DNA of 64,000 bases, taken from positions 373,517,261 through 373,581,260 of the forward strand of contig NC_133620.1 of NCBI RefSeq assembly GCF_048593235.1, in the 5' to 3' direction. How positions within the stretch are numbered: the first letter of the stretch is position 1; the number at the start of each line of letters is the position of its first letter. This DNA is from Sminthopsis crassicaudata. Lineage: Eukaryota. Shown one piece after another: positions 29,370 through 30,050 of this stretch. The translations under genes were made by a program, and so were the position numbers. The notes beneath the pieces were generated by a model. That model made no database searches and was not told where the DNA came from. It saw nothing but the letters and a program-made list of their open reading frames with translations.

Positions 29370-30050
29370 TTGTATCTTTGGAAGAGGTTCAGGCTGAAAT
29401 TGTCCTGGAACAATCACCATCACGCTAATTTAATGTCTTCATCATTCTCTCCTCATGTCTTTCAAGTGTCTTTCCAAAGATAATAACTTCATTGAGGTAC
29501 TATAATGCTTTCAGGTAGTTTTCTTCTTTGACTACTTTTTCATCACCATTAGGAAATGCCAGGTGTCCCCACATACTCTGGGGGCATACACTGGAAAAGT
29601 AAACTCAAGCTGGGCAGTTGAAAATAGTCTTTTTGTTGTCCATCATTTCAGCCATAGGAATCTAGTGTCATTCACCACACAAATCCAAGACTGAGCACCA
29701 CAGACTACCTAAGAAAGGGTCCGAGGCAACCCCAAGCAGGCCATTCTGTTCTATTACAGTTGTTCTGTTCAAAGCCCTATCCATAGTCTACACCCATTCC
29801 TTTCTTCCCATTCTTTGGTCTTTCTACCACTGGTGAAGCATAAGATTACTGGACTCTGAGGTGATGTACTGACCACTAGCAGTCCTTCAAGATGGTTTTG
29901 AAGGCCTTCTGTCACAGGGGAACCAATTTCCTAGATTTTTCCCAGAATGGTACTGAGTTAGTGAGGTGGATTCTCTGAGTTGTACCTCACTCAGGAACAT
30001 CCCTCATCCCATCCAATGCATTTAGGACGCACCTACCTTCTTGCTAAGCT
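29370..30050 (-). mobile_element. Decayed Ty3/Gypsy LTR-retrotransposon pol (reverse transcriptase) fragment
   Basis: Manual minus-strand translation across stops and frameshifts gives ordered RT blocks: RIHLTNSVPFWEKSRKL, YASPVV..KNGK..MGVDY (29842-), WCSVLDL...IPMAE..D.KKTIF, MPQ...EKVV...NYL, YLNEVIIFGKTLERHEERMMKTL (YxDD position 29499-29488). Confidence 0.8.

What the first reader, a model, noticed from the sequence alone, without database searches (positions are those of the whole stretch)
29370..30050. Hidden fossil Ty3/Gypsy reverse transcriptase in the DPM3-KRTCAP2 spacer
The ORF track misses it because of stops and frameshifts. Manual minus-strand translation recovers the Gypsy RT motifs in order: (H)RIHLTNSVPFWEKSRKL, QNHLEGLL, YASPVV..KNGK..MGVDY, WCSVLDL, IPMAE..D.KKTIF, MPQ, EKVV...NYL, YLNEVIIFGKTLERHEER. 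The catalytic YxDD has decayed to YLNE. Gypsy elements are extinct in mammals and internal pol remnants are rare. From memory, the wording (MPQ, FGKTLEEHEERL, PFRERSRR) resembles the Gypsy clade whose gag gave rise to the PNMA genes; that link is inference. The fragment could help reconstruct a marsupial Gypsy family.
Basis: partly seen in the sequence, partly recalled or inferred. Interest (0 to 1): 0.7.

Follow-up and report, generated by a model that had tools for sequence, protein, structure and literature searches.

The report
Dead marsupial Gypsy retrotransposon, PNMA lineage
This is a broken 0.7-kb reverse-transcriptase remnant of an ancient Gypsy retrotransposon, one of at least 42 such remnants in this marsupial genome, from the family that likely also gave rise to the marsupial gene PNMA-MS1; the fragment itself is likely functionless.

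Summary
Minus strand 30081-29428 aligns at 95 of 214 residues (44%) to a sea-turtle Ty3/Gypsy RT: score 257, best of 40 shuffles 53, ERV and L1 RTs at shuffle level. It has 6 stops, about 8 frameshifts and YLNE for YxDD. No gag, RNase H, integrase or LTR was found nearby.

It is not a rarity: at least 42 loci carry this RT and 50 carry PNMA-like capsid fragments. The 21 longest RT copies form one star-like clade, sister to the turtle element and among PNMA-gag elements. The turtle element matches published 'Barthez' sequences by eye. One sister copy keeps PNMA capsid, protease, RT and RNase H in order, and PNMA-MS1 nests among such capsids. So the PNMA link is supported.

The same insertion stands in two related species and is no more conserved than its flanks. 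Verdict: a neutral fossil of a known lineage. The interest lies in the family, a likely donor of PNMA-MS1. Overlap with Dfam/Repbase MamGyp families was not testable.

The parts
29389..30083 (-). Ty3/Gypsy (Barthez/PNMA-gag lineage) pol remnant: the stretch just upstream of RT plus most of the RT domain (turtle P0004 residues 220-436); truncated at both ends
   Evidence: protein, 30081-29428; DNA homology to sister copies, 30083-29389
29924..29974 (-). RT N-terminal motif RIHLTNSVPFWEKSRKL
29783..29842 (-). YASPVV..KNGK..MGVDY motif
29680..29700 (-). WCSVLDL; the first catalytic Asp position is retained
29488..29499 (-). YLNE, the decayed YxDD catalytic motif, directly after a stop codon
29500..30024 (-). 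Span of the breaks: stops near 30022, 29991, 29668, 29662, 29605, 29500; frameshifts near 30012, 29987, 29919, 29884, 29843, 29776, 29597, 29560 (frameshift places depend on the alignment)
30076..30115 (.). TTTG microsatellite bounding the remnant on its 5' side
29100..29360 (.). SINE-like repeat and AT-rich tract bounding the 3' side (MIR-like by recall; not classified with a library)
   Evidence: family D4
12511..12789 (-). DPM3 coding frame (neighbouring gene)
   Evidence: PF08285 E 1e-29
37602..37721 (-). KRTCAP2 last coding exon (neighbouring gene)
   Evidence: PF09775 E 9e-7

Best explanation
The stretch is a broken reverse-transcriptase fragment of a Ty3/Gypsy retrotransposon of the PNMA-capsid (Barthez) lineage, one of at least 42 decayed copies in this marsupial genome, likely functionless and likely from the family whose gag became PNMA-MS1. 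Shown: homology, breaks, copy number, domain order in sister copies, presence at the same place in two related species, and no excess conservation. Inferred from how Metaviridae work: the parent element packaged its RNA in a PNMA-type capsid, reverse-transcribed it and integrated here; deletions and later insertions then removed or hid everything but the RT. Inferred: the family spread in one old wave (star tree, about 0.4 changes per site on this copy), before the opossum/Australian marsupial split if it is the PNMA-MS1 donor.
For: 44% identity and score 257 against a shuffle maximum of 53; 7 ERV-derived and 2 L1 frames score 29-39. Sister copy L005 hits RVT_1 at E 1e-13 and Ty3 RT best in PDB: 5e-13, against foamy 0.012 and MLV 0.27. 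21 of 21 fossil rows form one clade (SH-aLRT 99), sister to turtle P0004, inside a clade (98) with 7 of 8 PNMA-gag elements; the result is the same when the copies are re-read against frog protein P0017. L083 has capsid, protease, RT and RNase H in order; L118 has capsid, RT end, RNase H and integrase; L087 and L089 have RT, RNase H and integrase. Window RT against L083 RT: 391 of 612 bases, score 244.5 against a shuffle maximum of 107. 20 of 20 gag loci score higher against PNMA-MS1 than against three fish/frog gags. MS1 sits in a clade (95) with 10 of 17 fossil capsids, including L083 and L118. Orthologous copies differ by 61 of 648 bases (organism B) and 50 of 648 (C), against 4-8% in flanks.
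Against: The window copy has no gag of its own, so its PNMA link runs through sister copies. The capsid match in L083 is short and weak (E 6e-3; Pfam E 4e-5). No turtle gag and no eutherian PNMA were in the capsid tree, and the capsids were found with a PNMA profile and read against MS1, which favours MS1. Long branches can attract each other (warnings). The capsids fall into two subgroups, so more than one family may be present. Third codon positions differ most (0.45/0.37/0.53), which points to several master elements or to selection of copies by protein score. No LTR was identified.
Confidence: 0.85

Rival explanations
1. The copy is an old therian insertion of the already catalogued MamGyp-int/MamGypsy-type family, shared with placental mammals, not a marsupial-specific family.
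For: PNMA2 is described as the gag of a MamGyp-int element (PMC9934673, passages). Repbase lists MamGyp-int and X1-X4_LR Gypsy internal parts in human (PMC5753468). 0.04% of the devil genome is already masked as Metaviridae (PMC11334065). End branches of about 0.4 are old enough to predate the therian split. This rival is compatible with the best explanation on lineage; it differs only on naming and age.
Against: Iwasaki 2013 argues for insertion after the split. Henriques 2024 infers one domestication each in placentals and marsupials. No direct sequence test was possible.
Confidence: 0.4
2. The remnant has been co-opted as a regulatory or transcribed element between DPM3 and KRTCAP2.
For: Gypsy fossils have been exapted elsewhere (PMC9004415). 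Low-depth contigs from runs guessed to be RNA cover it.
Against: Divergence inside is equal to or above that of the flanks in two species, with indels. The RNA-guess contigs cover flanks alike and may be DNA. 14 breaks rule out a protein. No Rfam match in 26-36 kb.
Confidence: 0.05
3. It is a decayed ERV or LINE RT, or a chance string of motifs.
For: The window's single frames give no Pfam hit, and the word-based protein search found nothing at E<=1.
Against: ERV and L1 frames of the same genome score at shuffle level (4 of the 7 ERV control frames lacked YxDD and are weak controls). The tree separates the 9 ERV rows from the fossils with support 100.
Confidence: 0.01

Closest known systems
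Barthez clade of Ty3/Gypsy (Metaviridae) in turtles and crocodilians; turtle protein P0004 (Natator depressus CAM5121346.1)
   Same: Nearest intact RT (44%) and sister to all fossil copies. P0004 is near-identical by eye to 'Chrysemys Barthez' AHGY01045193 and AHGY01367317 in the Kokosar & Kordis 2013 supplement. Relatives carry a PNMA gag.
   Different: Dead, fragmentary, YxDD lost. That paper's Table S2 scores Barthez as 'absent' in Theria rather than as corrupted remains, whereas at least 42 RT remains stand in this genome.
PNMA-MS1 (M-PNMA), marsupial domesticated gag gene
   Same: Same capsid type. Pol-linked fossil capsids are 55-57% identical to it in DNA, as much as the RT copies are to the window's (47-57%), and group with it.
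   Different: PNMA-MS1 is an intact 462-codon gag-only gene; this is a broken pol fragment without constraint.
MamGyp-int / MamGypLTR1-2 (Repbase, human)
   Same: Ancient mammalian Gypsy whose gag underlies PNMA2.
   Different: Sequence identity and pol content could not be compared here.
RTL1/PEG11 (domesticated gene that retains RT)
   Same: Mammalian metaviral RT sequence.
   Different: Chromovirus/sushi lineage with an open frame; this one is Barthez-type and broken.

Membership tests
Ty3/Gypsy (Metaviridae) | RT closer to Gypsy than to retroviral or LINE RT | tested here: met
Ty3/Gypsy (Metaviridae) | pol order protease-RT-RNase H-integrase | tested here: met
   Seen in sister copies L083, L087, L089, L118; the window copy has RT only
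Ty3/Gypsy (Metaviridae) | Flanking LTRs, primer site, target duplication | tested here: inconclusive
   No LTR-like pair or shared flank found; expected to be undetectable at this decay
Ty3/Gypsy (Metaviridae) | Catalytic YxDD (active enzyme) | tested here: not met
   YLNE in the window; 12 of 32 sister loci spanning the motif keep YxDD. Bears on activity, not descent
Ty3/Gypsy (Metaviridae) | Presence or absence of env (genus assignment) | not tested
   No env search was run
Barthez / PNMA-gag lineage | RT groups with PNMA-gag elements | tested here: met
   Clade of 36 rows with 7 of 8 PNMA-gag RTs, SH-aLRT 98; the 10 other-gag RTs lie outside
Barthez / PNMA-gag lineage | PNMA-type capsid in the same element | tested here: met
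   In sister copies L083 and L118, not in the window copy
Barthez / PNMA-gag lineage | Match to named Barthez elements | tested here: met
   By-eye comparison of P0004 with the printed Chrysemys Barthez sequences; not a computed alignment
MamGyp-int family | Sequence match to the Dfam/Repbase entry; insertions shared with placentals | not testable with these tools
   No repeat library or placental genome on hand
Domesticated metaviral gene | Open frame under purifying selection | tested here: not met
   6 stops and about 8 frameshifts; divergence not below flanks
ERV or LINE-1 RT | Best match to retroviral or L1 RT | tested here: not met
   Scores 29-39, within the shuffle range

The most novel reading that the evidence does not exclude
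The fragment belongs to an uncatalogued marsupial Barthez-lineage retrotransposon family whose gag-to-integrase anatomy survives in pieces, which was still jumping on the marsupial stem after the split from placentals and is the direct donor of PNMA-MS1. That would give PNMA an independent marsupial origin from a cohabiting parent family, against the single-therian-origin model and the 'Barthez absent in Theria' entry.
Probability: 0.35. Interest if true: 0.6.

Novelty: new member of a known kind. Interest (0 to 1): 0.38.

Why it matters
The fragment alone is junk DNA. The family matters for one open point. Kokosar & Kordis 2013 propose a single therian PNMA origin and list Barthez elements as absent from therians; Iwasaki 2013 and Henriques 2024 favour separate origins in marsupials and placentals. 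Dozens of datable copies of the probable parent family, some with capsid and pol in one piece, make the timing testable by presence/absence at orthologous sites. They are also closer relatives of the donor than the reptile and fish proxies used so far.

Tried and rejected
Pfam and PDB scans of the window's single frames found nothing. The word-based protein search found nothing at E<=1; one search used a wrong frame and is no evidence. A DNA search of the genome found only one other copy, because the copies are too diverged.

No gag, protease, RNase H or integrase was found in window 20-40 kb. No LTR pair was found (the repeats seen are LINE/SINE-like). No convincing shared sequence lies upstream of the gag copies (three weak, low-identity local alignments, not accepted). 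L118 lacks most of the RT, so it cannot be compared with the window directly (at shuffle level). No Rfam match.

Expression: contigs of runs guessed to be RNA (X7, X8, X9) and of one metatranscriptome (X20) cover parts of the fossil at low depth; the flanks are covered alike. No silent control was laid, so this shows nothing about transcription.

Gentles 2007 (opossum repeats) is not held. The earlier-findings look-ups were empty. Seven literature searches listed no paper describing a marsupial Barthez pol family; Repbase/Dfam entries and most subscription papers are outside that library, so this is weak.

Full report
Observation. The stretch lies between DPM3 (12511-12789) and the last KRTCAP2 coding exon (ends 37602), both confirmed by Pfam. 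Single frames gave no Pfam or PDB hit, so I went through relatives. The host is a dasyurid marsupial by inference: its PNMA-MS1 protein is 98% identical to the Tasmanian devil's.

Identity. The motif frame found 54 matches at E<=1 among 75 candidates in the same genome, 18 of them (self included) at E<=0.001. A less broken copy, L005, hit RVT_1 at E 1e-13 (4 of the 6 sister frames scanned hit RVT_1). It matched Ty3 RT best among solved structures and retrieved intact relatives. The best is sea-turtle protein P0004, followed mainly by fish elements, with frog elements further down; 5 of 17 proteins scanned carry a PNMA capsid upstream of the RT. P0004 hits the window at E 5e-21. A frameshift-aware alignment gives 95 of 214 identities over 30081-29428, score 257 against 53 for the best of 40 dinucleotide shuffles. 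Gypsy RTs with other gag types score 68-79, and ERV and L1 frames from this genome score 29-39 (4 of the 7 ERV frames lacked YxDD). The copy has 6 stops and about 8 frameshifts, keeps the first catalytic Asp and reads YLNE at YxDD. By eye, P0004 is near-identical to the printed 'Chrysemys Barthez' sequences of Kokosar & Kordis 2013, the lineage that paper names as PNMA progenitor.

Extent and surroundings. DNA homology to sister copies spans 30083-29389, bounded by a microsatellite and SINE-like repeats. No gag, protease, RNase H, integrase or LTR was detected in 20-40 kb.

Family. Of the non-redundant loci fetched, 41 besides the window were assigned to the family and 13 set aside as ERVs. 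The split was by identity, motif and breaks; the tree confirms it for the longer rows. 40 of the 41 are broken within the aligned part, and 12 of the 32 that span the motif keep YxDD. Only 30 loci were fetched per search, so 42 is a floor. The genome also holds 50 PNMA-capsid matches and degraded Gypsy-like integrases. The 21 RT copies with at least 160 aligned residues form one clade (SH-aLRT 99), sister to P0004 (99), within a clade holding 7 of 8 PNMA-gag elements (98). Shorter copies and 4 redundant ERV rows were left out, and 54 of 155 intact RT domains were used. Re-reading the copies against a frog protein gave the same groups. These are quick trees with long branches.

Link to PNMA. 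Of 40 ten-kilobase regions scanned, L083 shows capsid, protease, RT and RNase H in order; L118 shows capsid, RT end, RNase H and integrase; L087 and L089 show RT, RNase H and integrase; L117 and L121 link the capsid to integrase or protease. Most other capsid loci showed no pol. The window RT matches L083's RT at 391 of 612 bases. The one intact capsid gene, L132, is the PNMA-MS1 orthologue: 462 codons, 75-98% identical to seven marsupial proteins, including the 456-aa tammar and 458-aa opossum forms of Iwasaki 2013. All 20 fossil gags tested fit it better than fish or frog gags, and it nests with 10 of 17 fossil capsids, including both pol-linked ones (support 95). Against over-reading: the capsids were found with a PNMA profile and read against MS1, no turtle or eutherian capsid was in the tree, gag-only loci could be duplicates of MS1, and a second subgroup of 7 exists.

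Age and constraint. Copies are on average 55% identical in codon-aligned DNA; the DNA tree is star-like with a median end branch of 0.37 and 0.41 for the window. With one blastn setting, fossil matches have a median identity of 61%, against 62-69% for six neighbouring repeat stretches. Two related organisms (B, C) carry the insertion with its flanks. They differ inside it by 61 and 50 of 648 bases, against 24 of 384 and 25 of 333 in separate flank pieces, so there is no sign of constraint. Under a clock the insertion is roughly 8-10 times older than those splits; this is an upper bound, because alignment error and master divergence inflate end branches. If this is the PNMA-MS1 donor, it predates the opossum/Australian split. 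Whether it predates the placental split is open.

Mechanism. Inferred from Metaviridae biology: copy-and-paste through an RNA packaged in a PNMA-type capsid, reverse transcription and integrase insertion, followed by neutral decay and deletion. No present function is indicated.

Comparison with print. Fragmented metaviral fossils in mammals are known: Kokosar 2013 ('rare'); 83 pre-amniote Gypsy fossils in human (Frith 2022); MamGyp-int; 20 and 14 gag hits, mostly remnants, in tammar and opossum; 0.04% Metaviridae in the devil. Not seen in my seven searches: a description of the marsupial Barthez pol, or of capsid-pol linkage tying it to PNMA-MS1. Kokosar's Table S2 lists Barthez as absent in Theria.

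What I saw of each paper. Passages only: PMC9934673, PMC5753468, PMC9004415, PMC4408412, PMC4350176, PMC11334065. Passages plus section 4.1: PMC3789554. Passages plus the first part of section 8: PMC11011659. Passages, part 5 of 7 of supplement 3 and rows of supplement 4: PMC3670739 (its file 1 was not searchable). The Henriques 2024 supplements and Repbase/Dfam, unseen, may already hold these copies. The MIR label for flanking repeats is recalled, not tested.

Verdict. A real, neutral, ordinary copy of a known lineage; a new member of a known kind. The family offers a modest, testable handle on PNMA origins. Interest 0.38.

Noticed in passing
L132:6819-8207(-) (G000:C1:235.83 Mb): Intact 462-codon PNMA-MS1 orthologue with PNMA_N and PNMA domains.
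   Followed up: yes
L119:7432-8160(-) (G000:C7:67.91 Mb): Decayed, near-full-length PNMA-MS1-like gag with a 242-codon open stretch and no pol detected; a retro-duplicate of MS1 or a gag-only element copy.
   Followed up: partly
L114, L117, L122, L123, L126, L128, L129: Second subgroup of PNMA-like capsid fossils (support 89), 45-51% identical to MS1 in DNA; possibly a second Barthez-type family.
   Followed up: partly
L133-L144 and other rows: At least 30 of the 150 listed L1 RT matches lie in 1282-codon open frames, so this dasyurid seems to keep intact L1 ORF2, whereas degraded L1 was reported for the devil (PMC4408412, passages).
   Followed up: no
G000:C3:337.28-338.42 Mb: Nine near-equal ERV pol matches in two opposite-strand clusters, suggesting a tandem or inverted segmental amplification.
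   Followed up: no
window 33000-35000: GC-rich (52-54%) island inside the DPM3-KRTCAP2 spacer; two short frames at its edge had no Pfam hit. Possibly regulatory.
   Followed up: partly
G000:C1:498.31 and 498.37 Mb (L035, L010): Two family RT remnants 59 kb apart on the same strand with overlapping RT parts, so separate copies rather than one split element.
   Followed up: no
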